A DNA stretch of 64,000 nt from a virus: positions 7,882-71,881 of the IMG/VR virus record IMGVR_UViG_3300037882_000456. One strand, given 5' to 3'. This document shows positions 6,876 through 34,926 of this stretch, piece after piece. The notes below the pieces were generated by a model. It worked only from the letters and a program-made list of their open reading frames with translations. It had not been told where the DNA came from and searched no databases. Position numbers and translations under genes: made by a program. Position 1 is the first letter of the stretch, and each line of letters starts with the position of its first letter.

Positions 6876-7628
6876 CTAAAGTTCGATCCAGTCGGCTGGA
6901 AGTGTCACTGCGTTGTCATTTGGGACCGAAGTAACGCCAGTATCTGTCAAAACAGTCTCAACTGAGGGCTTCCTGTAGAACAACCTTGCATGCGTGGCTG
7001 CATCTGTAGCATCCAAAAGTCTCTGAGTTGCCGAGAACTGGTGCAAATAGAACGATCCGGTGCCAGTAGACATTCCAACGGTTACTGGTGAGGCTGCCTT
7101 CGCCGTGTACGCAATAGTGACGAGGCGGGAGTATGGAAAGGCTCGTGAGGTTGCGGTTGCCCATACCGCGCCATTTGCGTAAACAGTGGCAGCGCCTGTA
7201 ACAGTCAGGAGGCCAGCAGATGAGATATCTACGGTAATCGCTCCTCGTGCGATCCTGACCGTTCCAGAGACTGGCTTTACCATGAAAGAAACAGAACCAA
7301 CATCTACCTGATCTTGCCCTGCGATTAGCGGCTTGCAGAATGCGATTCCAGTTGTGCTAGTTTCCACTAGCACGCCATGCTGGTGCATGAGTTGTGGGCG
7401 CTTCTTGGGAACAATGGTTATCGTTGACGTTCCAATGTCGTGAGCGCCGCCCGAGGATAGGATGTTGTTTGCCGTAGCACCACCCTGGGCGAAAGCCCTG
7501 AATTGTAGGCTCTTGATGTCGCAGGTGTCACCGGAGAATGTGGACTTCAACGGAATATTCAGGGAGACAACCTTTCCGTCAGCGGGAACCGTATAGTTGC
7601 CAGTAATGGTAGTTGACTTCCTAATCAC
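6876..7628 (-). CDS. Putative minor structural protein
   Basis: 250 aa, beta/Thr-rich, coupled to upstream gene. Confidence 0.5.
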   Translation of the reverse strand: MIRKSTTITGNYTVPADGKVVSLNIPLKSTFSGDTCDIKSLQFRAFAQGGATANNILSSGGAHDIGTSTITIVPKKRPQLMHQHGVLVETSTTGIAFCKPLIAGQDQVDVGSVSFMVKPVSGTVRIARGAITVDISSAGLLTVTGAATVYANGAVWATATSRAFPYSRLVTIAYTAKAASPVTVGMSTGTGSFYLHQFSATQRLLDATDAATHARLFYRKPSVETVLTDTGVTSVPNDNAVTLPADWIEL

Positions 7629-9112
7629 TGTAGAACCTCCGTGATACCTGAGATTTCTGCATCGATGTAGAAGTAGGGCTGCCTAATGGTCAGTCCCTCA
7701 CGAAGGGCGACATCAAAGTTGATCGCCTTTTCAGCACGCACCGGGCGAGACGCTGAGGCGTACTCGGAAGTGAAGAATGTGTGAGCGCCCCAAGACGTAG
7801 AGGATACGGTTGGTGCCGCGTCGTCGAAACTATCCCATAGCCTCAACTGCCAAGTCCAGTTTGCCTGACTCGTGTAGTACGGCTGGTCGAAGGCCCCGTT
7901 GGCAGTGGATCGAGTGTTGCCAAATGTAACCTCGTAGTCTCTAAAGTTAATCCCAGCAGTTCCAGCAACAAGCATCGCGGTGCTTCCATAAACAACGTAT
8001 AGGCCGTTAGGGTTCCAGCCAAACCCAACATTTACTGCCGTCGCGTTACCAATCGCTGTAGCCGGTGTCGCTTGCTGAGTTACGGTCACAGAAGATGTGT
8101 CGATAAAGTTTGCATCTACAGAAAAGACAGTCCTGAGAAGATCCAGCCTATTGCCAGTGTTAAACCTGAGAGCGAACTGGTCAAGCCCTGGCCTTGCCGA
8201 GCGCAGATGAACAATGCCTCTGTTCGTTGCCGATGTGGTGTAGGACGGAATCTGAACGTTTGCGATTCCAGCGTTGGCTCCCCAAAAACCGGATGCACCG
8301 ACAGTAAAGTAGGAGTTTGTTGCAGTATCATATTCCTCCACCACGCCAAGATCCAAACCAAGAGCGCCATTCTCAACTGCCAGCCCGCTCACTAGGAACT
8401 CTGACCATGGAAGAGCCTTTGGAATGTCGTACTTAACGGCGTAGTCCTGAGAGAAGTCTGAAATATCGTAATCGACAAAGTCGTATCTTGCGCTGGCGTC
8501 AGGCGTTCCAAAGACCGCCTCTACCTGCCTAGACTGTACGAGAGGATCTGTCTGGAAAGATCGGTACAGGCCAAACGCGCCGAACACAAGTGTGCCTGCG
8601 GCAGGAGAGGTCATGGAGACAGTTGTGTGCGGCTTGAAATCTAGGTTGGCTACATCCCCTGATGCAACCAAAACTGCATCTACCCAAATTGAGTAGTTAG
8701 ATCGAGTCATGCTAATCGAAATCTGAGTCGTATCATCAGGCGTGAACTCTACTGGAACGACTTTCAGGGTAGTGTAAGGAAGTGTAATGTTGGCTAGGCC
8801 AGTAGACACGAATTCGATTAGGTTGTCTGCACCGGCCTTTGCTACCGTGAAGCCTGCCGACCCGGCCATGTACAGATAGAACTCTAGACACACAGAATCG
8901 TAAGTGTACAGGGACGGAATCGGAATGGACATTGACTTTGATGCCGCTGCGCCGTCAAACAGATATGCAAAATCAGACCCTGATACTATCGGGTCAACCT
9001 GCACTGGCGAGCCAGTCAAAGAAACAGCAGCACCAGATACCGCATCCACTAGAGACGCGTCGTGTAGAACCAGAACGTCGGCATCTACAATGGCTCTATC
9101 AAGTAGGGCCAC
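7625..9112 (-). CDS. Putative minor tail protein with LamG/ConA-like domain
   Basis: N-terminal pattern 'AYLFDG...CLEFYL...YSIWVDAVLV'. Confidence 0.5.
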   Translation of the reverse strand: MALLDRAIVDADVLVLHDASLVDAVSGAAVSLTGSPVQVDPIVSGSDFAYLFDGAAASKSMSIPIPSLYTYDSVCLEFYLYMAGSAGFTVAKAGADNLIEFVSTGLANITLPYTTLKVVPVEFTPDDTTQISISMTRSNYSIWVDAVLVASGDVANLDFKPHTTVSMTSPAAGTLVFGAFGLYRSFQTDPLVQSRQVEAVFGTPDASARYDFVDYDISDFSQDYAVKYDIPKALPWSEFLVSGLAVENGALGLDLGVVEEYDTATNSYFTVGASGFWGANAGIANVQIPSYTTSATNRGIVHLRSARPGLDQFALRFNTGNRLDLLRTVFSVDANFIDTSSVTVTQQATPATAIGNATAVNVGFGWNPNGLYVVYGSTAMLVAGTAGINFRDYEVTFGNTRSTANGAFDQPYYTSQANWTWQLRLWDSFDDAAPTVSSTSWGAHTFFTSEYASASRPVRAEKAINFDVALREGLTIRQPYFYIDAEISGITEVLQ

Positions 9113-9117
9113 TTAGT

Positions 9118-9414
9118 TCATGCCCCTAGAAGTTCCAGAGTCACTGGGGTTGGGATTCCTTCGTCCATACCTCGGATACCTGCGCTTAGTTGAAACTCAG
9201 TAAGTGCAGCCCTTACGTCTGGAAAACTAGAGTCTCCGTCAACATCATATCCAGCCTCAATAAGGCCTGCGAGTGCGGCCTGCCATTCTGGCAACGAGAG
9301 CGTGGTTACGCGCGTGGGAGCCTCCGGTGTCTCATCGACTACAACCTCTAGAACAGTCTCTACTGTCGTCTCGGCGTAATCCTCGAATACCTCATCAAAA
9401 TTCTTGCTTGCCAT
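9118..9414 (-). CDS. Small peptidoglycan-binding-domain protein
   Basis: 'WQAAL...GY..DG...AALTEFQ...G...GIP.PVTL'. Confidence 0.6.
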   Translation of the reverse strand: MASKNFDEVFEDYAETTVETVLEVVVDETPEAPTRVTTLSLPEWQAALAGLIEAGYDVDGDSSFPDVRAALTEFQLSAGIRGMDEGIPTPVTLELLGA

Positions 9415-9432
9415 GTTTCCTCCTAGTTAGTG

Positions 9433-9735
9433 TTATCGACCGATCAGGAAGTGAACCGTAAGCCATGAAAGAAACACAACTATACCCACTCGCCAGAAAA
9501 TCGCCCAATACAGAGTCTTGGACCTCGTTCCAAGCCAGATCTGCTCAGATAGTGTATCAAGTTTGCCCGAACGCCTAAGACCGTACCACTCCATTGTACC
9601 AAAGATTAGACCCCAGCCTACCCAGGCAAGGAAGAAAGCGTCTAGGGCGAAGGCGGTGACGGTAAGCGTACACGCTGCTATTAGAATCAGAACTGAAACC
9701 TTCTTAAACACTAAACCTCCTCCTGTAAAACTCAT
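9433..9735 (-). CDS. Membrane protein
   Basis: Three hydrophobic segments; 'DTLSEQIW'. Confidence 0.65.
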   Translation of the reverse strand: MSFTGGGLVFKKVSVLILIAACTLTVTAFALDAFFLAWVGWGLIFGTMEWYGLRRSGKLDTLSEQIWLGTRSKTLYWAIFWRVGIVVFLSWLTVHFLIGR

Positions 9736-10108
9736 GTGCTTCCATCATTCCCTCATCAGTATATAGCCTTGGGCGGCGGTGCTGATAATTCCAAGTAATA
9801 AAGAGTGTCCAGGTACCGGGCTTTAACTCGCTGATATAGTGTGCGTCAGTATTCTTCATTTTGTGGAATGAAAGTGCGCGGCGCTTGACAAACCTAGAAT
9901 CGTCCAAGCCCTCTGCCGGATTCTTAAACAGCCTCTCTGTGTACCAGCCCCACAGACCAACGGATAGGAAATCGCTCGGATGATCGTGCGGGACCTCGAT
10001 CATTTCCGAGGCTGGGTCGAGTCGGTGCAGAGAAAGCGTGAAAAAGCGATTCATCACAAAAAGATACTCTGTGATCTCGCCACGGATGCTCTTTTTCATA
10101 ACTTCCAA
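9704..10108 (-). CDS. Cupin/cysteine-dioxygenase-like protein (copy 2)
   Basis: 'PHDHP.DFLS.GL.GWY.E', 'H.I', 'WTLFIT'. Confidence 0.65.
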   Translation of the reverse strand: MEVMKKSIRGEITEYLFVMNRFFTLSLHRLDPASEMIEVPHDHPSDFLSVGLWGWYTERLFKNPAEGLDDSRFVKRRALSFHKMKNTDAHYISELKPGTWTLFITWNYQHRRPRLYTDEGMMEAHEFYRRRFSV

Positions 10109-10111
10109 TCT

Positions 10112-11269
10112 CTAGACGGAGACGAATCTCTCGGGAATAGAATACGACGGCAGACCGTCATTTTCAAGGTACAGACGTAGGGCCTGCTCATCAATTGTAC
10201 CACGATGGGCGCAGACCAGAGAGCCCTCCTCGACGTACACGGACTTGACGTTGTACCCGCGAGCGCGAAGCATATTGCAAATCTCTACAGGGAACACAGA
10301 AAAGCCACTCACCTTTGCCTTGCCTCTACCGATCAACTCGATCAAATCGCCATGAGCCTCTATAACGTCGCCGGTATCTACAAAGTCCTTCTTTTGATAA
10401 CCGGAACCATCAATGGTCCCGACAGTCATCTCGCTAACAAGTCTGTCGCCAGAGCCCTCTACCATTGGTGCCATCCAAAAGAAAGGCTCGCTCGCCATGC
10501 GTGCGCCTAAGATTCCTGCCTCGGTACACGAGTAAACGTCTACGATCTCTGGGTTGCCGAATACAACCTTGGCTTGCTCAATCGAATCCTCACCTAGTGG
10601 GGCCGATGCGGATAGAAAGCAGCCAAACTTTCGCTGATATCCTGCTGACCACAACTTGCTGACAACCATGCCCTTCGTCATAATAGAAAGGTCATCTGCC
10701 TGGACAAATGCGCTCAGGCTGTCTGCCGTTGGTCTTTCTGTCATCATAGACAGGGGAACCTCTAGGGCAAGTGCGGCGAGATAAGAAAGAACCGTCGTTT
10801 GGAGTGGAGCCGTCATAAAGGCGCGACCGATGAGCAGGGCGGGCATTGTCTTTTCTCCCCAATCAATCATCTTCTCGATCATATCTGGCTGCATGAAATA
10901 CGGCTCTACGATGTTGATCTTTGGCGTTCCAGATGTGCCAGACGACACGGACGCAAGAGAGCCGTCAGGAAACCCTGAGGCGTGTGCCAGAAACTGACCA
11001 GTGAGGCGATCCGCCACTTCTCCACGAAAGAAGTTGGGAAGGGCAAAGACCCTTGCGCCGCCTGCGAGAAGCCCTAAAACCTGGGGGATTTGAATAGGGT
11101 CGCCCGTAATGGAAAGAACAACAGCCTCTCCCTTTACACCTTCCGATGAGCGAAGGGCTGCCGCCTCGAACTCCCTGCCAGACATTGCTTCGCCGTCAAG
11201 CCTGATCGGCTCGGGCATCTGACTAATCTTGTCAATCAGATAAAGAGCATCAAGCGACGGTGGCACCAT
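10112..11269 (-). CDS. ANL-family adenylate-forming enzyme (acyl-CoA synthetase-like)
   Basis: AMP-binding motifs SSGTSGTPK, YSCTEAG, TGD, GR, 'VFPVEI'; probable start MVPPS at 11269. Confidence 0.8.
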   Translation of the reverse strand: MVPPSLDALYLIDKISQMPEPIRLDGEAMSGREFEAAALRSSEGVKGEAVVLSITGDPIQIPQVLGLLAGGARVFALPNFFRGEVADRLTGQFLAHASGFPDGSLASVSSGTSGTPKINIVEPYFMQPDMIEKMIDWGEKTMPALLIGRAFMTAPLQTTVLSYLAALALEVPLSMMTERPTADSLSAFVQADDLSIMTKGMVVSKLWSAGYQRKFGCFLSASAPLGEDSIEQAKVVFGNPEIVDVYSCTEAGILGARMASEPFFWMAPMVEGSGDRLVSEMTVGTIDGSGYQKKDFVDTGDVIEAHGDLIELIGRGKAKVSGFSVFPVEICNMLRARGYNVKSVYVEEGSLVCAHRGTIDEQALRLYLENDGLPSYSIPERFVSV

Positions 11270-11666
11270 GACCGAGTCTCGTGTACATCTCGCCCATCGT
11301 TTCAACTTCGCCGTTTGGGCCGTATGCCAGAGGCGGCTTGTGTGCATAGTTAAACGTGATGAACAGAGTGTACGCTGGGGTGTCAGAAACCGATGCAATC
11401 TTGTGCAACTGAGTGTTGTTCATCCTATGGATGTTAAACCTGCGCCTCATGTGGTTTACAAAGCCATCTTCTACAGCGTCTGCCTTGAAAACATTCTCTG
11501 AGTACCAGCCCTTTAGACCGATGGAGACAAAGTCACATCCATGGTTGTGAGGAAATGCCTCCTCGTCATCAGGAACCGTGATCCTATTAAGCATCACACT
11601 AAAGAACCTGTTATGAATGTACTGCTTGCGAGACATACTTGATCCGCCTCGGTCGTCAAACTTCAC
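11250..11666 (-). CDS. Cupin/cysteine-dioxygenase-like protein (copy 1)
   Basis: 'PHNHG.DFVSIGL.GWY.E', 'H.I', 'YTLFIT'; paralog of 9704..10108. Confidence 0.65.
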   Translation of the reverse strand: MKFDDRGGSSMSRKQYIHNRFFSVMLNRITVPDDEEAFPHNHGCDFVSIGLKGWYSENVFKADAVEDGFVNHMRRRFNIHRMNNTQLHKIASVSDTPAYTLFITFNYAHKPPLAYGPNGEVETMGEMYTRLGHGATVA

Positions 11667-11761
11667 TGTGTCACCTCCGTGTCAATTCCAACGAACGAAT
11701 CCGCTGGTGCTTCTGCGGGTGGTGCGTCGAGTGCCACCACCCAAGTCTTTGTGCCCTCCAT
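11663..11761 (-). CDS. 32-aa peptide MEGTKTWVVALDAPPAEAPADSFVGIDTEVTQ (not in ORF track)
   Basis: TAATG overlap with upstream gene and GTGA overlap with downstream gene. Confidence 0.6.
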   Translation of the reverse strand: MEGTKTWVVALDAPPAEAPADSFVGIDTEVTQ

Positions 11762-12195
11762 TACAGAATGCCCTCCAAGAAGATCGCGCGTTCGGCGTCC
11801 TTCCTCTGCTCCTGCATTGCGTTATCAACGGGAGGGAAGTCGTCAATGTTCTTTGGGATAGCGAACCCATACCTGTCAGCAACCAGCCTGCCAGCGGGTG
11901 AGGGATCGTGGATGTAGATCCTCTTAATTCCTGCGGCCTCTTTGGTGTAGTAGAACAACTTGGTAAAGATGCCCTGCTCCTGGTACATCGGAGATGTCCA
12001 AACAATCCCGCCAGTAACACACGAGCCAACACAATTATCGCACATGGTCCCTGCGCGCGCGGTCTTAAAGGTCACAATGGAGACGACTTCGCCTGATTCG
12101 TTCTGCGCTACGCCGACGACTGCGCCACCACCCCATAGGTGAATAGACTGCTGGACCTCGTCCTGCGTAAGTAACCTGTACTGAATTTCACTCAT
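11761..12195 (-). CDS. GNAT-like acetyltransferase
   Basis: 'IVWTSPMYQEQGIFTKL' (motif A) and 'SPAG..V...YGF'; leaderless TATAAT-N6-ATG. Confidence 0.7.
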   Translation of the reverse strand: MSEIQYRLLTQDEVQQSIHLWGGGAVVGVAQNESGEVVSIVTFKTARAGTMCDNCVGSCVTGGIVWTSPMYQEQGIFTKLFYYTKEAAGIKRIYIHDPSPAGRLVADRYGFAIPKNIDDFPPVDNAMQEQRKDAERAIFLEGIL

Positions 12196-12228
12196 GGGTC
12201 AATTATACCATGGGACAAAGCAAACTGC

Positions 12229-12747
12229 TTACGGTTCTAGGGCTAGAATGCGCGCTTCAAGGGCATCCATGCGGTCATCTAGGCCCTGTGCTCTCACGTT
12301 TAGATTGAGCACGGCATTCGCCTGAATGCCAGTTGAGCGTGCGCCTGATGCAAGCAGCATACTGTACGCATAAGAAACCTGAGTTAGAACCAGGAAGGCA
12401 AGTTTGTCTACGGTGTCAGACCTATAGTTGAACGCGCTATAGTTTCTCAGAGCAACCTGGACGGGTGTGTTGGCTGTGGCGAACTCTGTCGGCGTCACAG
12501 AACCGTCCTCCGTTGCCACCCTAAGCGCCTCTAGTGCGGCCATAAGTTGTCCAGACATAACGCTAATCGCCGTGATCTCTTCTGCGGGGGCAGAAGGGAA
12601 GTTTGCTAGATACTCAGCAAGGTCATCCTGGTTTCGTGGTCGAACGGCTTCGACAATAAGCCTGCTTTGATCCACGACCTGAACCGTTTGTGTAACGGTG
12701 TCGTAAACCTTAATGTTGCCTGTTGGCAACAGCCACTCTCTAATCAT
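12229..12747 (-). CDS. Helical protein with C-terminal coiled coil (tail-fibre accessory?)
   Basis: Likely start MIREW at 12747 (TAATG overlap); ends 'DALEARILALE'. Confidence 0.5.
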   Translation of the reverse strand: MIREWLLPTGNIKVYDTVTQTVQVVDQSRLIVEAVRPRNQDDLAEYLANFPSAPAEEITAISVMSGQLMAALEALRVATEDGSVTPTEFATANTPVQVALRNYSAFNYRSDTVDKLAFLVLTQVSYAYSMLLASGARSTGIQANAVLNLNVRAQGLDDRMDALEARILALEP

Positions 12748-13700
12748 TACACTCCCGTCCCCTTCTTGATATAAATGTTCGGTCCACCATTTGAAATGCC
12801 CGGTGTTCCAGAGTTTGTTCCCTGTGCTGTAGTCGTGGCAATCGCATTCACGCCAAGTGGAGAGAACCCAATCGTTCCAGATGCAGAAGGATAGTAACAA
12901 GGAAGGGTTCTGGCGTACCTTAGACCATTAACCACAAGTTCAGTCTTGTTTGCAAGTTGTCCTGACTGGTCACCCGAACCGGCGAGATAGTTGTCGCCTG
13001 CGAAGAAGCAGTTGTTCACTCTACCAATTAACCCACTCGTTCCACCAATTATAACATAGGGCCACAGGATGTCGCCACCAAGAAACTTCTTTGATGGTGC
13101 GAGATCTCCAACTGCTGGCTGATCTTGGATGGCTGGACGCATAGTAGCCAACTCAATTGTTTCCTGGGCGGCGTCCTGATTGATTGCCCTACCGGAAGAT
13201 GAAAATGCCGCTGTGCCTGCGGAAGCAGAGGTCCAGGTTCCAGGGTCAGATGAGAATGACGCGAGCATAACCTTGTGGTTCGCGGCATTTGAGTTAGAAG
13301 CGGAATACGGAGTGTACTTGGTAAGCAGCACGAATGAGGACGGCGAGCCATATGTAACATCATTGGCTCCAGTCAATGCCTGTGACGGCCCCATAATCTT
13401 TAGGTAGAAGTGGTCCGGGGAAATAGACAATTCAACTTCCATGTACGAGCCAGAAAAAGTCGTGTTGCCTGAAATAAGATAGAACGAAGCGCCAGAGAAG
13501 TCGGGGCTTGTAAACAACATCTTTCCGTTGGTACCGAACGCTACCGGAGGAGTAATGCTCAGGGTCGTTCCACCAGATGTAGAAGAGTACGTTCCTGCCG
13601 CATTTGTCCAGCCAGATGCGGCCAGTTGTGTCGTGATGATGTTAAGCAGGGCAGAGCCGTCTGCTGTACCAGAATACGTGCTTGACTTTGTGTACGTCAT
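12747..13700 (-). CDS. Putative minor tail/virion protein
   Basis: 317 aa, G/S/T-rich; 'L...GWT' N-terminus. Confidence 0.55.
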   Translation of the reverse strand: MTYTKSSTYSGTADGSALLNIITTQLAASGWTNAAGTYSSTSGGTTLSITPPVAFGTNGKMLFTSPDFSGASFYLISGNTTFSGSYMEVELSISPDHFYLKIMGPSQALTGANDVTYGSPSSFVLLTKYTPYSASNSNAANHKVMLASFSSDPGTWTSASAGTAAFSSSGRAINQDAAQETIELATMRPAIQDQPAVGDLAPSKKFLGGDILWPYVIIGGTSGLIGRVNNCFFAGDNYLAGSGDQSGQLANKTELVVNGLRYARTLPCYYPSASGTIGFSPLGVNAIATTTAQGTNSGTPGISNGGPNIYIKKGTGV

Positions 13701-14149
13701 GTTGTTTCACCCACCTCGTATATCTTATCAGTTCCTAGATATGGAACGCCGGTCGGGACAAAGTTAGTATTGACAGGGCTTTCGTTGACGCCCGTTTCGT
13801 GTTGAGTCGGTGCCCACTTAAACCCCGAGTCAGCAGAACGAAAGGCCCAGTAATCCTCTAGTGTCCACTCTAACCTATCCCAGTACATAGTGGTCCCCCT
13901 CGCAATGATCCCAATGGTATCAAACGAGGATCCGCTGACCGCTTCTGTGTGCCACGGGGTATCGGCAGATGTTGGCTTGTTTGTCTGTACATAGATCTTC
14001 AAAGTAAGAGAGCCTGTGTTTGAAGGCGGATAGGACCCTGTGGTGTTTGTGACTCCACCGGGGTCAATAACAAACCAAACCCTCGAAGGATTTGGAAGGT
14101 CTGTCTGTGTACTGTATGTGTACGATGTGCTAACTCCGTTGCCACCCAT
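13697..14149 (-). CDS. Putative virion protein
   Basis: 150 aa, translationally coupled. Confidence 0.5.
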   Translation of the reverse strand: MGGNGVSTSYTYSTQTDLPNPSRVWFVIDPGGVTNTTGSYPPSNTGSLTLKIYVQTNKPTSADTPWHTEAVSGSSFDTIGIIARGTTMYWDRLEWTLEDYWAFRSADSGFKWAPTQHETGVNESPVNTNFVPTGVPYLGTDKIYEVGETT

Positions 14150-15135
14150 TACGCTGCACCCGACTCGATTGTGATTGCCTTGACGCCGAGGGCAGCGATG
14201 TCAGAGTTAAAGTAGATATTCTTCATGGCTCCACCAATGGTTAGTTTGATTGCTCCACCACCGCCGTTGTAATCAAGACAGATCATTTGGAATGGGTGGT
14301 CAGCCGATACCAAGCCCTTCGGGGCAGACCTGTTAGATGTCACAATGGAATACCCTGGTGCGGCACCGGTGCAAGTAAGATAAGAAGAGTAGATCGTCTG
14401 TGCGCCAGTGATCGCTCCGTATGGAGTTACGAGTTCTGTATCTCCTGGCGTCGAGGCATTGGCAGTATTGTACTGCGTTGCTGACTCTGGCCCAACAAAG
14501 TGATCGCTGAACAGGACTCTAGGCCCAGGGCCATTGTTGTACACAAGGCCAACGCGGTACATCTTGATCAGATCAAATATCACGCCCGTCTTTGTGGCGA
14601 AAACACCTGCATACCTGTTGTTTCCTGTCATTGAATTGAGCAACTGGCTATACTGAAATGGAGTGCTAAAGTTCAAGTCCATTAACTTCAACCATGTTGC
14701 GCCGCTCTTGTAGTGAACTACCCAGCCATATTGACCTGGCGACATCTTTATTGTCTGAACGGATCCGCGCGCGAATGGGCATGGAATCTCGGTAACTGAC
14801 GCAACACCGGGGCCGAGCACCGAGGGAGTTGTGCCTGCAAGTTTCAGCGTTAGAAGAGTGTCGCTACCAACATAAGAGATTTCAAACTTCACGCCCGTGG
14901 TGAAGTTAAGGCTGTTTGTGTTTGTAAAGAGGCCAGCACCGTCCTGAATTGCGAACGTGGATTCGACTGTCATTGGGCTAGAGTTGATCACGCTACTTGC
15001 GGCTACCATTGCCAAAGTTCCATTAGCGGAGTTATTGACCACGCCGGTTGCTCCGCTTGTGCCCCACGAACCCGCGATCTCAGTGACGCCTAGGATTCCT
15101 GGGACCGAGCCATCAATCATAAAGAATGGCTTCAT
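14149..15135 (-). CDS. Putative virion/receptor-binding protein
   Basis: 328 aa, beta-rich, coupled to collagen gene. Confidence 0.5.
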   Translation of the reverse strand: MKPFFMIDGSVPGILGVTEIAGSWGTSGATGVVNNSANGTLAMVAASSVINSSPMTVESTFAIQDGAGLFTNTNSLNFTTGVKFEISYVGSDTLLTLKLAGTTPSVLGPGVASVTEIPCPFARGSVQTIKMSPGQYGWVVHYKSGATWLKLMDLNFSTPFQYSQLLNSMTGNNRYAGVFATKTGVIFDLIKMYRVGLVYNNGPGPRVLFSDHFVGPESATQYNTANASTPGDTELVTPYGAITGAQTIYSSYLTCTGAAPGYSIVTSNRSAPKGLVSADHPFQMICLDYNGGGGAIKLTIGGAMKNIYFNSDIAALGVKAITIESGAA

Positions 15136-16682
15136 GGAGTTGTCCAGTCTAGCCTGAAAGTGACCTTAGTTGGAGCAGTTCCTGTAATCGAGGTTGCGGC
15201 GATCTGAATTACGCTGCCTGCTGTACCTGCATGAGAGACGCTAAATGCCTGATATGTTACACCGGCGGTTACTGTCATCGGTGCTCCAAAGTTTGTTCCA
15301 TCCTTTACCAACTGGATGTTAAATGAATCCGAGCCTGCGACTGCGGTGTAAACCACCCTGGTGATTGTGAAAGCATCTGGCATTGGGAGTCTTGCATCAT
15401 ATGTCTTTGACGCTAGCGTGCCGATGCCGCCGAATTGCGCCGTTACTGCACCGTTAGTGCCGTTGGTTCCAGCAGCGCCATCAGATCCGTCAAGTCCTGG
15501 GTCGCCCTGGATACCTTGAATACCCTGGATTCCTTGATCACCTTGGATTCCTTGAATGCCCTGAGCGCCGTCGCTGCCATCGAGGCCTGCATCACCCTGA
15601 ATTCCCTGGATTCCTTGAATACCCTGATCGCCTTGATCGCCCTGGGGGCCAGGAACCGTAGAGTCTGCGCCTGGGATGCCCTGAATTCCTTGGATTCCTT
15701 GGATTCCTTGATCACCCTCTGGACCTGGAACTGTAGAGTCTGCGCCGTCAGCGCCATCGACACCTGGAATTCCCTGAATGCCTTGGATTCCCTGGATACC
15801 CTGGTCACCTTCTGGTCCCGGTACGGTCGAGGCAGCGCCAGTCTCACCTTGAATGCCCTGGATTCCCTGAATGCCCTGGATTCCTTGATCTCCGGTGTCA
15901 CCCTTATCACCTTTGTCACCCTTGATTCCCTGGATGCCCTGATCTCCCTGGTTTCCGAGATCGCCCTTTAAGCCCTGAATTCCCTGATTACCCTGGATTC
16001 CCTGGATCCCCTGGTCACCAGTGTCACCCTTAACACCCTGAATGCCTTGATCGCCAGTGTCACCCTTAATGCCCTGAATTCCTTGAATACCCTGAATTCC
16101 CTGCTCACCCTGAGGGCCTCTGATCTGACCAGCGTTCGTCCACTGAGTCCCAGTCCAAACCATACCATCGCCTGCGATGCCGACACCAGACTGAGAAGCA
16201 GCAAGGATCCACATATCACCTGACTGTGGTGACTCTAGAGCGATTGCAGACCAAGTTGCCGTTCCCTTGACAACAATTCCAGAGCCGTCTTGTCCATCAA
16301 GACCATCCACACCGGGCTCGCCACGGAACGTTCCAACGTCAATCCAAGAAGAACCATCCCAAACCCAAAGGTTATCTCCAACAACATAAGAAACTACGCC
16401 GTTTCCAGATGGGTACGCTGCAATAAGGTCGCCAGAGGTCGGGAATGATCCGCCGATAGTTCCGTAGCCAAGCGTCTTAAGACCATAGGTTCCGTCTGTA
16501 CGACGGAAAAGAACCTGATAAGCGCGGCCACCAGATGTGCTTACATCAGCCAAGTCGTCAAGCGAAATAGTCGCGCCGGTGCTTGTGGTGGGCTGGCCTC
16601 CTACTGGGGCCGTTGAAGAAAACCCTGGAAGGCCTGGGGAAGTTACAATTCCCGATTCTTGGGACTCATCGTATACAGGCAT
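15132..16682 (-). CDS. Collagen-like fibre protein
   Basis: Long Gly-X-Y run (GIQ/GDQ/GDT); leaderless TATAAT-N6-ATG. Confidence 0.9.
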   Translation of the reverse strand: MPVYDESQESGIVTSPGLPGFSSTAPVGGQPTTSTGATISLDDLADVSTSGGRAYQVLFRRTDGTYGLKTLGYGTIGGSFPTSGDLIAAYPSGNGVVSYVVGDNLWVWDGSSWIDVGTFRGEPGVDGLDGQDGSGIVVKGTATWSAIALESPQSGDMWILAASQSGVGIAGDGMVWTGTQWTNAGQIRGPQGEQGIQGIQGIQGIKGDTGDQGIQGVKGDTGDQGIQGIQGNQGIQGLKGDLGNQGDQGIQGIKGDKGDKGDTGDQGIQGIQGIQGIQGETGAASTVPGPEGDQGIQGIQGIQGIPGVDGADGADSTVPGPEGDQGIQGIQGIQGIPGADSTVPGPQGDQGDQGIQGIQGIQGDAGLDGSDGAQGIQGIQGDQGIQGIQGIQGDPGLDGSDGAAGTNGTNGAVTAQFGGIGTLASKTYDARLPMPDAFTITRVVYTAVAGSDSFNIQLVKDGTNFGAPMTVTAGVTYQAFSVSHAGTAGSVIQIAATSITGTAPTKVTFRLDWTTP

Positions 16683-16711
16683 GAATTCATTATACCATTA
16701 AGCCGATCAGA

Positions 16712-19015
16712 TTACACCCAGGTAGAGCCGTCATACTTCTTAATGCCCGACACCGTTACCCATGAGTTTCCATCCCATGACTTAACGGCCACGGCGGCTA
16801 CAAAGGAGGAGCCGTTGTGGAACTTGATCGACACCTGACCGGGGATTCCATTCATGGATTCCGAAGTCTTGATCTTTGCCTGATCAGAAACTGGGATAGA
16901 TACGGAGATTGTGATTGACTCAGTGACCTTTGGACTTATCTGCTCGCTAACAGGAACGTCGATGTTTCCAATTGCTACCGAGGCTGATTCAACAGACTTT
17001 GGCTTTGCAGAGTCAGAAACTGGAATGCTAGCCGCTACCACTGCGGCGTCTACGGCCTTCGGCCTTGAAGTATCGGATAGCGCGAGGCCTACAGTGGGTA
17101 CGGCAAAAACTTCGGCAGTCTTTGGCTTCGCCGTATCCGTCACCGCGACGCTAACAGCGACCGTTATGGACTCAACGGCCTTAGGTGCCAGTCCATCTGA
17201 AACCGGAACAGCAGTCTCGCCCGTAGAAGCGTTAACCGACTCACTTACCTTGCCCAGCAGCGTGTCAGTTAGTGATACAGACGCGGGTGCGCTCAATAAC
17301 TCAACGGCCTTGGGGCTGGCTGTATCCGTTAGAGAAATGGATACTTCAATCGTTGCAGAGTCTACCACCTTCGGCTTTGCTGCATCCGAAGTAGGAACAG
17401 CGGTTCCTGCACCAGTGTCTACACTAACAACATCTGCAATCTTTGGCTTAACAAGGTCGGAGACAGGAGCGTTAACCGTTATAGTTATCGATTCCGCTGC
17501 CTTCGGCTTTGCGCTGTCAGATAGAAGGATGGCGACTTCTGTGACAATTGACTCAGAAACCTTGGGCTTAATGGAGTCAGACAGGGATACGGCATTCTCA
17601 ACGAGTACGGACTCAGCGATCTTCGGCTTGGCGAGATCTGAAACCGCCGGTGCGTTTGCGATGGCTACAGATTCGACAACCTTAGGCTTTACATTATCTG
17701 CCAATGGCGAGTCGGCGGTGATCGTAATAGACTCTACGGACTTCGGCTTGGCACCATCGGAGATGTTAGTTCCCCCACCAAGTCCAGTGTCGGTGATGTA
17801 GGCGTTCCAGTTTGAGATCTCCCAGTAACCACCAACTCCATCTCCACGAAGATACAGCCTGACGTACCTTGCCTCGGCTGGCAGGGTGAAAGTTTCTGTC
17901 TCTACAACTGTCTGGGTTGGGGTAATGTTCCCATACCTAAGATCAAGGTAATTGATGTCCGTGGTGTTGGTGTACGAAACGTTGGCGTTCGTCGCTGACC
18001 ACACACCAGTAAGAAGTGAAGTTAGGTTGTTTACATTCGAGCCATCGTTGCGATAGTCAGCCTGAACAACAAGGTTTCTTCCAAGACCATTGGTGTCAAC
18101 AACGTAGCCCGCAAAGGCGGTCATTTCAGATGCTGATGTAAGAACTCCTAGCCTGTCATCGGGCTGGGTGTTCGAATACCATGTAGTTGTTGCATTAGAA
18201 GTGTGAACCCAATCGCTTTGACCTGGGCTTCCTAGCCACGGTGGAGGAAAGAACCTTGGCCCCTGGTTAGCGTACTCAACCGCCTTGGGCTTGATCGTAT
18301 CAGAAACGCTGATACTTCTATTGGCGGGCTGTAGCCTGAGTGCGATACCTGAGAAGTCCTTGGCGGTACCATAATCGCTAGCATACTCTGCGCTGCCGCC
18401 AGGAAGACTTGTGTGAAAACCAACATCAAGGCAAACATTCGATGCCGCGCCGCCGCTGATTGTTGAAACGCGGTTGGCTGTCCAGCCAGTTGTGGGATTG
18501 TTCGTGTAACTTACCCAGTCGGAATCTGGCGCTTCTACTGCCAGGGCTACGAGGGCGGCGTCGCCGGTGTTGGCACCGGACCCTGAGTAAATACCGGCAA
18601 AGGTCGGATCGAATGAGCCGCTATTAGACTCGCTAGTTACTACCCCTACACCGGAGAAAACAAAATAGCGCATCGCCTTAGCGGTGATGGATGGAGAAAA
18701 GGTCGCTGTCAGGATGCCGATATTTCCGGCGGCTGTAACTGTAGCGTACGCTATGTTAACTTGCGCGGAGTTGCCTGCCGAGGCATTGCCGTTCGCGCCG
18801 ACGACATACGTCCAGGCGCTCAACGTCGCCAACCCCGAGCCAGATTGCGTTATGGCAATGGTTGGGGTTGACGCTGAGGCGTTGTCAGAAGACGTTGAAA
18901 CAATTACTACGTCGCCAATTGCCGATGGGGCATCCGTGCCAGCGCCATCCGATAAAGTAGTACCGGCAGCCTTAAGCGAAATTCCGCCCGAAACAAAAGT
19001 GTTTAGAATAGCCAT
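16712..19015 (-). CDS. Large virion protein with tandem 'SDxxKPKxxES' repeats
   Basis: About 16 imperfect 21-26 aa repeats; C-terminal 'WDGNSWV/YDGSTWV'. Confidence 0.7.
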   Translation of the reverse strand: MAILNTFVSGGISLKAAGTTLSDGAGTDAPSAIGDVVIVSTSSDNASASTPTIAITQSGSGLATLSAWTYVVGANGNASAGNSAQVNIAYATVTAAGNIGILTATFSPSITAKAMRYFVFSGVGVVTSESNSGSFDPTFAGIYSGSGANTGDAALVALAVEAPDSDWVSYTNNPTTGWTANRVSTISGGAASNVCLDVGFHTSLPGGSAEYASDYGTAKDFSGIALRLQPANRSISVSDTIKPKAVEYANQGPRFFPPPWLGSPGQSDWVHTSNATTTWYSNTQPDDRLGVLTSASEMTAFAGYVVDTNGLGRNLVVQADYRNDGSNVNNLTSLLTGVWSATNANVSYTNTTDINYLDLRYGNITPTQTVVETETFTLPAEARYVRLYLRGDGVGGYWEISNWNAYITDTGLGGGTNISDGAKPKSVESITITADSPLADNVKPKVVESVAIANAPAVSDLAKPKIAESVLVENAVSLSDSIKPKVSESIVTEVAILLSDSAKPKAAESITITVNAPVSDLVKPKIADVVSVDTGAGTAVPTSDAAKPKVVDSATIEVSISLTDTASPKAVELLSAPASVSLTDTLLGKVSESVNASTGETAVPVSDGLAPKAVESITVAVSVAVTDTAKPKTAEVFAVPTVGLALSDTSRPKAVDAAVVAASIPVSDSAKPKSVESASVAIGNIDVPVSEQISPKVTESITISVSIPVSDQAKIKTSESMNGIPGQVSIKFHNGSSFVAAVAVKSWDGNSWVTVSGIKKYDGSTWV

Positions 19016-19034
19016 AACTTATAGGCTACTAGAC

Positions 19035-19424
19035 TTATGCTCCGACAGAGAACGTAATAGTTGCAGTTACAGTCCAAGTCTGACCGGCTGACTTTGTACC
19101 CAGAGCCTCAACCTTGCGGCAAAGCATTGTCGCGCCGGAAGCGGAGTTAAAGACTCCCCACTCGTTCCAAACGTAGTTTGCTTCGGCAGAGCCGAATACA
19201 CTCTTGAACTGAGTTGCGCTTGCTGTGAGTGCGGTTGGGAAGGTTGCTTCCATAATTCTACGGAACTTGTTGGTTGCAGCCTGTAGGTCAACATAGGTTA
19301 GAGGGGTCGCATTGGTTGTGCTGTCACCGACGCCAATTCTTGCGTTCGCGTTGTTGAAAAACGTAACAGCCTCTCCAAGCACAGCCTTAGCCATGATATC
19401 TGAACCAGCATTAACTAGTGGCAT
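19035..19424 (-). CDS. Minor tail/baseplate-like protein
   Basis: 'IGVGD', 'F...EANYVWNEWGVFN', 'GTK...TW'. Confidence 0.6.
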   Translation of the reverse strand: MPLVNAGSDIMAKAVLGEAVTFFNNANARIGVGDSTTNATPLTYVDLQAATNKFRRIMEATFPTALTASATQFKSVFGSAEANYVWNEWGVFNSASGATMLCRKVEALGTKSAGQTWTVTATITFSVGA

Positions 19425-19426
19425 TA

Positions 19427-19600
19427 CTAGACCTCCTTCCCATTTACAGTATGTTCTACTAGTATACCATCAACATAGGTAAGAACATGCTCTTCGTAAG
19501 GAGTTGCACCCTCGCCTAGTTCGTCGTAATCGTCAGAAATGTACTTCTTGAATTCGTACACCTCTTTTGCGATTCCAATCTTAGTCTCTTCGGTTTCCAT
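19427..19600 (-). CDS. Small acidic hypothetical protein
   Basis: Likely start METEET at 19600. Confidence 0.5.
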   Translation of the reverse strand: METEETKIGIAKEVYEFKKYISDDYDELGEGATPYEEHVLTYVDGILVEHTVNGKEV

Positions 19601-19602
19601 TA

Positions 19603-19821
19603 TTATCCTGTCTGAATCCAAATATCGTTTGTGGCCGGTGCTAGCGGGGTGCCAGAAGATGGGCCAATGTAAACCTTTGTGCCTGTTGCTGCCATTCCTG
19701 TGCCGGTGCCCTTTTGCCATCCAGTCTGCACTGCACCCGTGGCGACGACCTTGATCACCGCTGGGGCCGAGACTCTGATGACTGGCTTTGCCACCACGGA
19801 AACCTTAATAACATCAGCCAT
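19603..19821 (-). CDS. Small virion-like protein
   Basis: 72 aa; 'P....NDIWIQT' tail-fibre-type motif. Confidence 0.5.
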   Translation of the reverse strand: MADVIKVSVVAKPVIRVSAPAVIKVVATGAVQTGWQKGTGTGMAATGTKVYIGPSSGTPLAPATNDIWIQTG

Positions 19822-20177
19822 TAGGAAGCATATCCCTTAGACACAACGATCTCGCCTTTGAGAATAACATCCTTCTCTGTTGCCGCGTTGGTCGTTAGAA
19901 TGTCGAAGTAGTATGAGCCCACAGCCCACCCTGCGGTTGTAGCCGAGGGGACTGTTACTCCGATGGTGCCTCCGGTTAGCGGGGCTGTGTAGGACGCGTA
20001 TGAGTTCGATGCATTGTTAACACCTGGAACCGCAGTTCCGGTGTTATCCACAATACCGATGCGTACAGCCGTGAAGCCAGTAAAGTTTACCGGCGTGGCC
20101 TCTGTCTCATCCGTATAGAGGACTACAGAGAACTTAAGGGTCGCCCCTGTGCTGGCATATACGATAACGTCACTCAT
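19821..20177 (-). CDS. BppU-like/virion structural protein
   Basis: 'G.T..F', 'NFTG', 'YYFDI', 'ILKG.I.V' pattern. Confidence 0.55.
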   Translation of the reverse strand: MSDVIVYASTGATLKFSVVLYTDETEATPVNFTGFTAVRIGIVDNTGTAVPGVNNASNSYASYTAPLTGGTIGVTVPSATTAGWAVGSYYFDILTTNAATEKDVILKGEIVVSKGYAS

Positions 20178-31883: not shown

Positions 31884-32012
31884 CGGGCAAGATCTTGCCC
31901 GCGCAGCGGGAAATGTCAATTTAAGAAGATCTGAAATACTCACGGGAAACGCTTGACAACCCTTGCCCATGCTGGTAGGCTGGCGGTACGCCAACCAGAG
32001 AGGAACCACCAC

Positions 32013-32210
32013 ATGCCCCCCTTCGACCCCGACTTCGACGCTGACAACCCGTACATCACCGACATTCCCGCGCGCTTCGTGTCCCCCGAGGACGAGGACG
32101 CTGACTTCGAGGACGCCTACGGCGTGTTCGCTGAGGCCACCTACGACCCCGATGGCGACTGGGGTGGCGAGGACGCTGGCATGGAGTTCGGCCTCTTCGG
32201 AGACTGCTGA
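32013..32210 (+). CDS. Highly acidic 65-aa protein (DNA-mimic candidate)
   Basis: About 20 D/E versus 1 R; own TTGACA-N17-TAGGCT promoter; GAGG RBS. Confidence 0.65.
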   Translation: MPPFDPDFDADNPYITDIPARFVSPEDEDADFEDAYGVFAEATYDPDGDWGGEDAGMEFGLFGDC

Positions 32211-32304
32211 CCCCAACGCTACCCCTTCGGGGGTAGCGCGGGCATGATCTTGCCCGCCTGCGGGCGGTTGTCAAGTTAAGATCATATGCTGAGACTCACG
32301 GGAA

Positions 32305-32332
32305 TGTCAGACCCATGTGCTAGGATGTCTCT
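32305..32332 (+). promoter_or_regulatory. PafBC-type promoter, leaderless
   Basis: TGTCAG-N10-TAGGAT-N6-ATG. Confidence 0.7.
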
Positions 32333-32524
32333 ATGAGACGAACCAAGCAAGCAGGAAATGATCACGGTATGCGTGCGATCTTCGACCGTGATGATCACAC
32401 GATCACCCTGACTACACACGGTAGCGGTGATGACCTGTTCATGTGGACCGAGCCGCAGGAACCGACTAACAAGCAACTGAAAAACATTCTGGAAAGTCAC
32501 CCCTGTACGGCGTGTCGCGTGTAG
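32333..32524 (+). CDS. Early hypothetical protein
   Basis: 63 aa, ends HPCTAC. Confidence 0.55.
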   Translation: MRRTKQAGNDHGMRAIFDRDDHTITLTTHGSGDDLFMWTEPQEPTNKQLKNILESHPCTACRV

Positions 32525-32527
32525 GAC

Positions 32528-32549
32528 TGTCGGACCCCTGTGCTACAAT
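32528..32549 (+). promoter_or_regulatory. PafBC-type promoter upstream of whiB-like gene
   Basis: TGTCGG-N10-TACAAT. Confidence 0.7.
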
Positions 32550-32578
32550 GGCATCATCAACCAAACGAAAGGCACGAA

Positions 32579-34924: not shown

Positions 34925-34926
34925 TC

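What the first reader, a model, noticed from the sequence alone, without database searches (positions are those of the whole stretch)
9433..12195. Mini biosynthetic/modification operon among virion genes: GNAT, hidden 32-aa peptide, cupin, adenylate ligase, cupin, membrane protein
Seen: a leaderless promoter drives tightly coupled ORFs. These are a GNAT-like gene, an unannotated peptide (11761-11663, TAATG and GTGA overlaps), two paralogous HxH cupins flanking an ANL enzyme (SSGTSGTPK, YxxTE, TGD) and a 3-TM protein. Established: ANL enzymes adenylate carboxylates, cupins are often Fe-dioxygenases and GNATs transfer acyl groups. Inference: a pathway that acylates or hydroxylates a substrate such as the peptide (RiPP/carrier-like), the nearby collagen or fibre proteins, or a small signal molecule. 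ANL enzymes are unusual phage cargo.
Basis: partly seen in the sequence, partly recalled or inferred. Interest (0 to 1): 0.8.

Follow-up and report, generated by a model that had tools for sequence, protein, structure and literature searches.

The report
Phage acyl-transfer cassette with conserved micropeptide
An uncultured freshwater phage related to large Streptomyces phages carries a rare gene cassette for an acid-activating enzyme, an acyl-transferring enzyme and a conserved 32-residue peptide, which probably work together to attach an acyl group to a peptide or protein, though the chemistry is untested.

Summary
The six tightly packed minus-strand ORFs, their TAATG and GTGA overlaps and the ANL motifs are all present. 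The TGGTATAAT-N6-ATG element in front belongs to a recurrent, statistically enriched leaderless-type promoter class in this phage.

Fold searches confirm an ANL adenylate-forming enzyme (weak model) and a GNAT acyltransferase (good model). The two "cupins" match only PHROG 4786 and the cupin metal motifs.

Seven distinct phage or metagenome contigs carry the module. The conserved core is not cupin-ANL-cupin. It is GNAT plus an ORF that overlaps the GNAT stop, plus ANL. GNAT and ANL occur in 7 of 7 contigs, although gene order changes and ANL identity falls to about 25%.

The 32-36-aa peptide is homologous in 4 of 7 contigs and shows more synonymous than non-synonymous change. Cupins occur in only 3 of 7, and the second cupin only in this window.

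The ANL lacks the canonical A10 lysine. The GNAT has an invariant CxxCxxxC loop.

Best reading (about 0.4): the ANL activates a carboxylate, the GNAT transfers it, and the peptide is acceptor or partner. No relatives were found in cultured phages or bacterial genomes, and my literature searches found no description.

The parts
12202..12210 (-). Extended -10-like element TGGTATAAT, 6 nt upstream of the GNAT ATG (leaderless-type promoter candidate)
   Evidence: Sequence. The motif class is enriched: 9 found against 1.07 expected. TATAAT-N6-RTG: 6 found against 0.43 expected, five of them on ORF starts. Not experimentally shown and not conserved in L001 or L004.
11761..12195 (-). GNAT-fold acyltransferase, 144 aa, with an invariant CxxCxxxC loop (C52, C55, C59) before strand beta4 and a QxQGIF motif-A-like segment
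   Evidence: AF2 model pLDDT 83. Foldseek top hits are GNATs, e.g. AAC(6')-Iy, E 5.5e-5. VIA-align top rows are GNATs, Z 6.2-7.5. The Cys triad is invariant in 14 of 14 homologues. Pfam is below threshold (PF13508, 12.8 bits against 27).
11663..11761 (-). 32-aa acidic microprotein ORF (pI about 4). Its ATG overlaps the GNAT stop (TAATG) and its stop overlaps the cupin 1 GTG (GTGA).
   Evidence: Homologous 33-36-aa ORFs sit in the same position after the GNAT gene in L001, L004 and L007. Leave-one-out HMM finds each left-out copy at E 1e-7 to 9e-10 among 3567 six-frame pieces, with the next best at 0.018 or worse. pN < pS in 6 of 6 pairs. GGAGGG lies 9 nt upstream.
11250..11666 (-). Cupin-like protein 1 (138 aa) with candidate metal ligands H40, H42, D45/E57 and H80(x)3N84
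   Evidence: PHROG 4786 'cysteine dioxygenase', E 2.7e-14. Invariant residues. GGAGGTG lies 6 nt before GTG 11666. The N-terminal KF(D/N)DRGGSS is conserved against L001 with mostly synonymous DNA changes. No Pfam hit. Fold not predicted.
10112..11269 (-). Short ANL-superfamily adenylate-forming enzyme (385 aa). Motifs A3 SSGTSGTPK, A5 YSCTE, A7 TGD and A8 GRGKAKVSGF are present; there is no A10 lysine.
   Evidence: Alignments. AF2 model pLDDT 60. Foldseek gives 474 matches at E <= 0.001, all of the listed rows ANL-superfamily adenylate-forming enzymes or adenylation domains (MenE, McbA, benzoate-CoA ligase, NRPS A domains), prob 1.0, TMq 0.42-0.55. 15 of 20 family members hit PF00501, best E 2.5e-22. 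The window protein itself scores only 15.6 bits against the 29.9 cut-off.
9704..10099 (-). Cupin-like protein 2 (131 aa from ATG 10099), a paralogue of cupin 1 and specific to this lineage
   Evidence: 38% identity to cupin 1, E 9e-27. PHROG 4786, E 1.6e-11. Absent in L001, where ANL and the membrane gene overlap.
9433..9735 (-). Small membrane protein (100 aa from ATG 9735, 92 aa from GTG 9711), two or three hydrophobic segments
   Evidence: PHROG 3555 (unknown function), E 3.7e-9. Hydropathy. Homologue after the ANL in L001, E 3.6e-15. L008 has only a positional analogue, E 0.025.
9118..9414 (-). Downstream neighbour: 98-aa protein with a weak peptidoglycan-binding-domain resemblance. Membership of the module is uncertain.
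   Evidence: PF01471, E 0.015, 15.9 bits against the 23 cut-off. Conserved after the membrane gene in L001, 64% identity, E 1.7e-22. Strong AGGAGG before its ATG.
12229..12747 (-). Upstream neighbour conserved in front of the module in all relatives (about 172 aa from ATG 12747; the mechanical ORF runs from 12900). Function unknown.
   Evidence: tblastn hits directly upstream of the module in L001, L004, L005, L006 and L007, E 1e-18 to 5e-42. PHROG 24907 (unknown function), E 6.9e-5.

Best explanation
This is a dedicated acyl-activation and acyl-transfer cassette of a phage lineage.

The core has three parts:
1. A short ANL enzyme that activates a carboxylic acid with ATP, as acyl-AMP and possibly onward to a thioester.
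2. A small GNAT-fold acyltransferase with an invariant three-cysteine loop, which moves the acyl group onto an amine.
3. A 32-36-aa acidic microprotein translated by coupling from the GNAT stop codon. I take it to be the acyl acceptor, or the specificity or docking partner of the enzymes. Its invariant Met-Glu-Gly N-terminus is the only conserved amine.

The cupins are optional tailoring enzymes (metal-dependent, thiol-dioxygenase-like) that some lineages added, and this window added twice. The small membrane protein and the PG-binding-like neighbour suggest the product acts at the envelope or the virion.

Shown: gene structure, folds, motifs, conserved linkage, and purifying selection on the peptide.

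Inferred: every chemical step, the acyl donor, the acceptor and the biological role.
For: Linkage:
- GNAT and ANL are each found exactly once in 7 of 7 distinct contigs (window, L001, L004-L008), by HMM and tblastn.
- This holds although the order changes. It is GNAT-pep-cupin-ANL in the window and L001, ANL-GNAT-pep in L004 and L007, and GNAT-ORF-ANL in L008.
- ANL identity to the window protein falls to 23-29% over the aligned segments in L004-L008.
- An ORF starts on or within 11 nt of the GNAT stop in all 7.

Peptide:
- 4 homologous copies, with pN < pS in 6 of 6 pairs and omega 0.19-0.49 in the 3 pairs where dS is computable.

Folds and motifs:
- ANL; GNAT.
- Cupins are dispensable: 3 of 7 contigs.

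Expression context:
- The cassette has its own promoter-class element.
- 151-nt contigs identical to the window, from two freshwater metatranscriptome libraries, lie on cupin 1 and the 5' part of the ANL gene. This is a weak hint only, since DNA carry-over is not excluded.

Precedent:
- GNATs that acylate ribosomal peptides are established (selidamides; passages of PMC8784127).
Against: - The window's ANL subfamily ends 6 residues after the conserved IPxR and has no A10 lysine. In canonical ANL enzymes this lysine is needed for adenylation (established knowledge, recalled).
- The ANL model is poor (pLDDT 60).
- The peptide has no invariant Lys, Ser, Thr or Cys, so only the N-terminal amine or the carboxylates could be modified.
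- In L005/L006 and L008 the ORF after the GNAT is not detectably homologous to the peptide. The peptide is therefore not universal.
- GNAT motif A is atypical (QxQGIF) and CoA binding is untested.
- No relative of known function exists. Pfam scores for the window proteins are below threshold.
Confidence: 0.4

Rival explanations
1. Small-molecule pathway. The ANL and GNAT (with or without cupin) make or alter a low-molecular-weight compound, such as an N-acyl amine or amino acid, or a modified host metabolite or antibiotic. The microprotein is an unrelated small regulator or structural protein that merely rides on GNAT translation.
For: - Nearest structures for the GNAT are small-molecule acetyltransferases: AAC(6'), GNA1, polyamine and serotonin N-acetyltransferases.
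- Nearest structures for the ANL are aryl or acyl-CoA ligases and an amide-bond synthetase.
- NCBIfam hits of family members are to CoA ligases and A domains.
- The peptide is missing or replaced in 3 of 7 contigs.
- The peptide has no conserved nucleophilic side chain.
Against: - The invariant stop/start overlap of GNAT with a following ORF (7 of 7) and selection on the peptide argue for a functional tie.
- The cassette keeps a fixed place in a late, virion-gene region behind the same upstream gene. It does not sit among metabolic genes.
- Fold neighbours of a generic GNAT say little about substrate.
Confidence: 0.25
2. The peptide is a subunit of the GNAT, not a substrate. It would complete or regulate the truncated acyltransferase, which in the model has no beta6-beta7 hairpin and ends in a long helix. 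Alternatively it would inhibit the enzyme until needed. The real acceptor would be another phage or host protein, or the cell envelope.
For: - The model shows strands only up to about residue 94, plus a C-terminal helix 126-143.
- VIA alignments cover residues 1-128 only.
- The peptide has two short hydrophobic or aromatic segments separated by a Pro-rich linker.
- Translational coupling favours equal stoichiometry.
- The membrane protein and PG-binding-like neighbour follow in the window and L001.
Against: - No structural or binding evidence.
- The peptide is not detectable in 3 of 7 contigs, while the GNAT there is of similar length.
Confidence: 0.12
3. Envelope or host-target modification. 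The cassette acylates peptidoglycan, teichoic-acid-like polymers or a host protein during infection, for lysis timing, superinfection exclusion or counter-defence. The membrane and PG-binding-like proteins would be part of the machine (a Dlt-like logic).
For: - 4 of 20 ANL family members hit DltA models, best E 8.7e-11.
- A small membrane protein and a weak PG_binding_1 match lie directly downstream.
- In Streptomyces phage Wakanda the equivalent variable region holds a LysM endolysin.
Against: - The membrane and PG-binding-like genes are confirmed only in the window and L001. L008 has weak positional analogues (E 0.025 and 0.04), and L005-L007 have none in the fetched flanks.
- The PG_binding_1 score is below threshold.
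- No MBOAT or DltD-like partners were seen.
Confidence: 0.13
4. Regulatory pair of the Pat/AcuA-Acs type. The GNAT would acetylate the ANL to switch it off.
For: GNAT/ANL gene adjacency. A cAMP-binding mycobacterial protein acyltransferase is among the Foldseek hits (4oll).
Against: The known target is the A10 lysine (recalled), which this ANL lacks. The model does not explain the conserved peptide.
Confidence: 0.04

Closest known systems
RiPP-associated GNAT acyltransferases (selidamide KspN/PhaN; goadvionin GNAT)
   Same: A GNAT-fold enzyme is encoded next to a small ribosomal peptide and transfers an acyl group onto a peptide amine. Source: passages of PMC8784127, which also mention goadvionin GNATs using an ACP-bound acyl unit.
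   Different: - Those precursors are long NHLP/Nif11 leader-core peptides with Lys or Orn acceptors, in bacterial BGCs with LanM, arginase, protease and transporter genes.
- Here the peptide is 32-36 aa with no invariant Lys, and the GNAT has a Cys3 loop.
- A dedicated short ANL is linked, and the locus is in a phage late region.
- No sequence relationship to those GNATs was tested.
Mycobacterial mbt-2 locus (mbtL carrier, mbtM/fadD33 ANL, mbtN, mbtK GNAT)
   Same: In Actinobacteria, an ANL, a small acidic protein, a GNAT and a redox tailoring enzyme are encoded together. Gene adjacency Rv1344-Rv1347c was seen in a table passage of PMC4324632. The functional roles (acyl-AMP ligase loads the carrier, the GNAT acylates a lysine amine) are recalled, not read here.
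   Different: - MbtL is a full-size phosphopantetheinylated ACP.
- The phage peptide is about 33 aa, and its only Asp-Ser candidate site is Asp-Gly in L001.
- No sequence similarity was tested.
Short ANL enzymes (TIGR02372 PYP-type 4-coumarate-CoA ligase, MenE, McbA amide-bond synthetase)
   Same: Same fold and the A3, A5, A7 and A8 motifs. Similar length of about 385 aa (TIGR02372 profile length 386).
   Different: - Scores are far below family cut-offs: 21 bits against 334.7 for TIGR02372.
- There is no A10 lysine.
- The C-terminal subdomain has only about 70 residues after the hinge.
Thiol-dioxygenase-type cupins (CDO_I / PCO_ADO; PHROG 4786)
   Same: Match to PHROG 4786, E 2.7e-14 and 1.6e-11. 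HxH...H metal motif. The nearest named Atlas clusters are CDO_I and PCO_ADO, at a score of only 0.79/0.77, which is a lead and not evidence.
   Different: - No Pfam hit at E <= 5 for 7 of 7 members.
- Only about 135 aa.
- The fold was not predicted here.
- The linked peptide has no cysteine.

Membership tests
ANL superfamily (adenylate-forming enzymes) | A3 P-loop motif [ST][ST]G[ST][TS]GxPK | tested here: met
   SSGTSGTPK at residues 109-117. S110, G111, G114 and P116 are invariant or nearly so in 20 homologues. The motif definition is recalled.
ANL superfamily (adenylate-forming enzymes) | A5 (YxxTE), A7 (TGD) and A8 hinge (GRxx.K..G) motifs | tested here: met
   YSCTE 246-250, TGD 299-301, GRGKAKVSGF 314-323. 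D244, G252, D301 and G322 are invariant. A PDB profile aligns the A7-A8 segment to coronafacate ligase at E 0.18.
ANL superfamily (adenylate-forming enzymes) | A10 catalytic lysine in the C-terminal subdomain | tested here: not met
   The window protein and its 3 closest homologues end at ...IPxRFVxV with no Lys. Some distant members end in WGxxK.
ANL superfamily (adenylate-forming enzymes) | Two-domain ANL fold | tested here: met
   Foldseek gives 474 matches at E <= 0.001, with the top rows all ANL enzymes, prob 1.0, TMq 0.42-0.55. The model is weak (pLDDT 60).
ANL superfamily (adenylate-forming enzymes) | Pfam PF00501 above the gathering score | tested here: not met
   15.6 bits against 29.9 for the window protein. 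15 of 20 family members match at E <= 0.01, best 2.5e-22.
GNAT superfamily | GNAT alpha/beta fold | tested here: met
   Model pLDDT 83. Foldseek gives 21 matches at E <= 0.001, nearly all listed rows GNAT-family acetyltransferases. VIA Z 6.2-7.5 over residues 1-128, rows almost all GNATs; Z below 8 is middling.
GNAT superfamily | Motif A Q/RxxGxG/A (acyl-CoA pyrophosphate loop) | tested here: inconclusive
   The sequence is QxQGIF, with G75, I76 and F77 conserved and the last Gly/Ala replaced by Phe. CoA binding is not testable here. The motif definition is recalled.
GNAT superfamily | Pfam GNAT model above the gathering score | tested here: not met
   PF13508, 12.8 bits against 27.
Cupin superfamily / thiol dioxygenases | Two cupin metal motifs (HxH...E/D and H(x)3N) | tested here: met
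   H40, H42, D45, E57, H80, N84 and H88 are invariant in 7 of 7 sequences. The motif definition is recalled.
Cupin superfamily / thiol dioxygenases | Double-stranded beta-helix fold; significant family match | tested here: inconclusive
   PHROG 4786, E 2.7e-14. No Pfam hit. The PDB profile gives only a cupin_2 protein at E 0.92.
RiPP biosynthetic cluster | Precursor with conserved leader and modifiable core residues, plus maturase and protease or exporter | tested here: inconclusive
   The peptide is conserved and coupled to an enzyme gene. It has no invariant Lys, Cys, Ser or Thr. No protease or transporter was recognised in the flanks.
Acyl/peptidyl carrier protein | Invariant Ser (DSL) for phosphopantetheine, on a four-helix bundle of about 80 aa | tested here: not met
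   The site reads DS in 3 of 4 copies but DG in L001, and the length is 32-36 aa.

The most novel reading that the evidence does not exclude
A lineage of large actinophage-like viruses encodes its own ribosomal micropeptide together with a private acyl-activating enzyme and a metal- or cysteine-loop GNAT. The cassette makes an acylated peptide, a phage-made RiPP-like lipo- or acyl-peptide or a covalent acyl tag. That product would be built into, or act alongside, the virion or fibre apparatus during infection. Some lineages would add cupin oxygenases that further tailor it.
Probability: 0.22. Interest if true: 0.85.

Novelty: new variant of a known kind. Interest (0 to 1): 0.62.

Why it matters
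If the reading holds, this would be a virus-encoded post-translational acylation system with its own substrate peptide and its own acid-activating enzyme, placed among late or virion genes of lytic-type phages. I found nothing like it in four literature searches, among 50,697 phage genomes or in one genome for each of 185,579 bacterial and archaeal species.

It also defines three new sequence families:
- A short ANL clade without the A10 lysine, which raises the question of how, or whether, it adenylates.
- A GNAT clade with an invariant CxxCxxxC loop.
- A selected 32-36-aa microprotein that gene callers miss.

It also gives a testable promoter class (TGNTATAAT-N6-ATG, leaderless) for this phage group.

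Tried and rejected
- Complex prediction on GNAT (alignment A6) plus peptide (A8) gave the verdict 'no answer', score 0.01 and 0.00 against a mark of 0.32. This counts neither for nor against binding.
- I suspected that the N-terminus of the 438-aa Ser/Thr/Ala-rich protein that follows the GNAT in L005/L006, and the 53-aa Trp-rich ORF that follows it in L008, were homologues of the peptide. An HMM of the four peptides does not find them at E <= 50. They are only positional analogues.
- The idea that the peptide is a frameshift extension of the GNAT is rejected. The frame offset is +2 in the window, L001, L004 and L008, but +1 in L007 and L005 (coordinates).
- Nothing came from direct sequence searches against solved structures for the ANL (best E 0.29, an aminotransferase), cupin 1 (none) or the GNAT (best E 0.33).
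- The GNAT profile's best PDB hit was a ferredoxin-like Cys motif of HycB3, E 0.021. That is a lead for metal binding, not evidence.
- Scans with P0005, P0041 and P0044 in viral contigs found no further loci. A7 re-found the L005/L006 contigs.
- Four related-loci runs failed because the alignment was not conserved enough.
- Sequencing runs: 11 freshwater runs hold small shares of the stretch's sampled words (0.05-0.22). Of the four laid, none covered the peptide in an RNA library. Absence of cover means nothing.
- L008's membrane protein and 84-aa protein resemble the window's only at E 0.025 and 0.04.


Full report
**What is in the sequence.** On the minus strand between 12195 and 9433 lie six ORFs with almost no intergenic space:
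- A 144-aa protein (12195-11761).
- A 32-aa ORF (11761-11663). Its ATG shares bases with the preceding TAA (TAATG) and its TGA shares bases with the next gene's GTG (GTGA).
- A 138-aa protein (11666-11250).
- A 385-aa protein (ATG 11269-10112, overlapping the previous gene by 20 nt).
- A 131-aa protein (ATG 10099-9704).
- A 100-aa hydrophobic protein (9735-9433).

Shine-Dalgarno-like GGAGG elements precede the peptide, cupin 1 and the membrane gene. The GTG start of cupin 1 is supported by conservation of the first ten residues against L001, where most DNA differences are synonymous. The ANL stop TAG is in frame with cupin 2, 15 nt upstream of its ATG. I did not follow this up.

**The promoter.** TGGTATAAT ends 6 nt before the first ATG. 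This is not a lone match.
- TGNTATAAT occurs 9 times in the window against 1.07 expected; 0 of 100 shuffles reach 9.
- TATAAT-N6-RTG occurs 6 times against 0.43 expected; 0 of 100 shuffles reach 6.
- Five of those six coincide with the start codons of ORFs of 90 aa or more, at 12195, 16682, 20177, 45055 and 57162.
- A further TGCTATAAT lies 9 nt before a tRNA cluster.

The standard two-hexamer scan missed the site because it has no -35. It is not conserved in relatives, where the first module gene overlaps the upstream gene.

**What the proteins are.**
- Direct Pfam scores for the window proteins are below threshold: GNAT PF13508 at 12.8 bits against 27, and ANL PF00501 at 15.6 against 29.9.
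- The ANL call rests on the A3, A5, A7 and A8 motifs conserved across 20 homologues. It also rests on 15 of 20 homologues matching PF00501, best E 2.5e-22.
- A low-confidence AF2 model (pLDDT 60) still retrieves only ANL enzymes at the top of Foldseek: MenE, McbA and benzoate-CoA ligase, prob 1.0, TMq 0.42-0.55.
- The protein is short, and the window's subfamily stops before the A10 lysine.
- The GNAT call rests on a good model (pLDDT 83) whose Foldseek and VIA neighbours are GNATs.
- All 14 homologues carry an invariant CxxCxxxC loop just before beta4. Its meaning is unknown. A weak ferredoxin-motif match at E 0.021 is only a lead.
- The two cupin-like proteins are 38% identical and match PHROG 4786 'cysteine dioxygenase'. 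They keep HxH...H(x)3N in 7 of 7 sequences. They have no Pfam or PDB sequence match and no model was made.
- The membrane protein matches only PHROG 3555, of unknown function.

**Who carries it.**
- The record is a 71.9-kb viral contig judged 56% complete, with 27 tRNA genes in the window.
- Its portal is 55% identical to those of about 127-kb Streptomyces phages such as Wakanda (Stanwilliamsviridae). Protease, capsid and other head genes are collinear.
- The module lies in a variable stretch between a ribonucleotide-reductase homologue and the portal. In that position Wakanda has a LysM endolysin and a 732-aa protein.
- Cultured phages have no match to the region, the ANL, cupin 1 or the GNAT.
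- Pattern scans of one genome for each of 185,579 bacterial and archaeal species found no ANL or GNAT relative.
- An exhaustive profile search of 1.84 billion representatives found 31 ANL relatives at E <= 0.001.
- Runs that share words with the stretch are freshwater metagenomes.

**Comparative anatomy, the key result.** Seven distinct contigs carry the module: the window, L001 (identical to L003) and L004-L008. HMMs find exactly one GNAT and one ANL in each, and cupins only in the window (two), L001 and L004.

| Contig | Gene order |
|---|---|
| Window | up-GNAT-pep-cupin-ANL-cupin-membrane-PGB |
| L001 | same as the window, without the second cupin |
| L004 | up-ANL-GNAT-pep-cupin (contig ends) |
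| L007 | up-ANL-GNAT-pep, then fibre-like genes |
| L005/L006 | up-ANL-GNAT, then a 438-aa Ser/Thr/Ala-rich protein |
| L008 | up-GNAT-53-aa ORF-ANL-membrane-like-84 aa |

ANL identity to the window falls to 23-29%. The two enzymes nevertheless stay adjacent behind the same upstream gene, and the GNAT stop is always overlapped by the next start. The conserved unit is GNAT, the following ORF and the ANL.

**The peptide.** Four copies of 32-36 aa align with invariant M1, E2, G3, W7, A10, D21 and G25.
- With each copy left out in turn, an HMM of the other three finds it at E 1.4e-7 to 8.6e-10 among 3567 six-frame pieces. The best unrelated piece is at 0.018 or worse.
- Length differences are whole codons.
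- pN is below pS in 6 of 6 pairs. Omega is 0.19-0.49 in the three pairs where dS is not saturated.
- The GTGA overlap with the cupin start recurs in L004.

This is a selected coding sequence, not a spacer. It is acidic (pI about 4) and has no invariant Lys, Ser, Thr or Cys. The Asp-Ser that might suggest a carrier site is Asp-Gly in L001. The ORFs that take its place in L005/L006 and L008 are not detectably related.

**Expression.** Contigs from two metatranscriptome libraries, identical to the window, lie on cupin 1 (11319-11621) and the 5' part of the ANL gene (11085-11235). None lies on the peptide. DNA carry-over cannot be excluded, so this is a weak hint only.

**Interpretation.** An acid-activating enzyme is bound in evolution to an acyltransferase and to a co-translated micropeptide. 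The simplest chemistry is activate-then-transfer, with the peptide as acceptor or partner.
- GNATs that acylate ribosomal peptides are known (passages of PMC8784127).
- In Actinobacteria the mbt-2 locus combines an ANL, a small carrier and a GNAT. Adjacency was seen in PMC4324632; the roles are recalled.
- Against a simple reading stand the missing A10 lysine, the atypical motif A, the lack of a conserved side-chain nucleophile, and the absence of the peptide in three contigs.

I put 0.4 on the peptide-linked acyl-transfer reading. The rivals are a small-molecule product (0.25), an envelope or host target (0.13), the peptide as a GNAT subunit (0.12) and Pat/Acs-type regulation (0.04).

**Literature.** Four searches on phage ANL/GNAT modules, phage RiPP clusters and Stanwilliamsviridae returned no description of this module in their listings. 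I read passages only of PMC8784127, PMC11118758 and PMC4324632. Supplements were not consulted.

Noticed in passing
window 16689-16697, 20184-20192, 45062-45070, 57169-57177 (all minus strand), plus 12202-12210: TGNTATAAT followed after exactly 6 nt by the ATG of a long ORF. This is a recurrent leaderless-type promoter architecture: 9 motif copies against 1.07 expected, and 6 TATAAT-N6-RTG against 0.43 expected. A further copy at 57362-57370 lies 9 nt before a tRNA cluster.
   Followed up: partly
window 10099-10114: The ANL stop codon TAG is in frame with cupin 2, with four codons between the TAG and the ATG. Read-through would fuse the two proteins. No suppressor tRNA (anticodon CTA) is among the 27 tRNAs found.
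   Followed up: no
window 35934-36249 and 47558-62940: There are 27 tRNA genes in clusters, which fits the large tRNA-rich Streptomyces phages to which the portal is 55% identical.
   Followed up: partly
window 32001-42000: This stretch has higher G+C (0.56-0.58 in four of its five 2-kb bins, 0.53 in the 34-36 kb bin) than the rest of the window (about 0.47-0.55), on the plus-strand gene block that includes four tRNAs.
   Followed up: no
window 6876-20177 compared with L011 (Wakanda) 8197-11979: The region between the ribonucleotide-reductase homologue and the gp19/portal pair is not collinear with Wakanda. Wakanda has a LysM endolysin and a 732-aa protein there. This virus has a collagen-like protein, several unknown 150-770-aa proteins and the module.
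   Followed up: partly
L008 1624-1785: A 53-aa ORF very rich in tryptophan (9 W) starts on the GNAT stop (TAATG) in the place of the peptide. It is not detectably homologous to the peptide.
   Followed up: partly
L005 6732-8048 (and the same in L006): A 438-aa Ser/Thr/Ala-rich protein with repeated EQP(I/L)xLxQ-like segments starts 8 nt before the GNAT stop. It has no PHROG hit, and Tandem Repeats Finder finds nothing at DNA level.
   Followed up: partly
window 9118-9414: A 98-aa protein with a sub-threshold PG_binding_1 match (E 0.015) and an acidic N-terminus. It is conserved in L001 (64% identity) directly after the membrane gene.
   Followed up: partly
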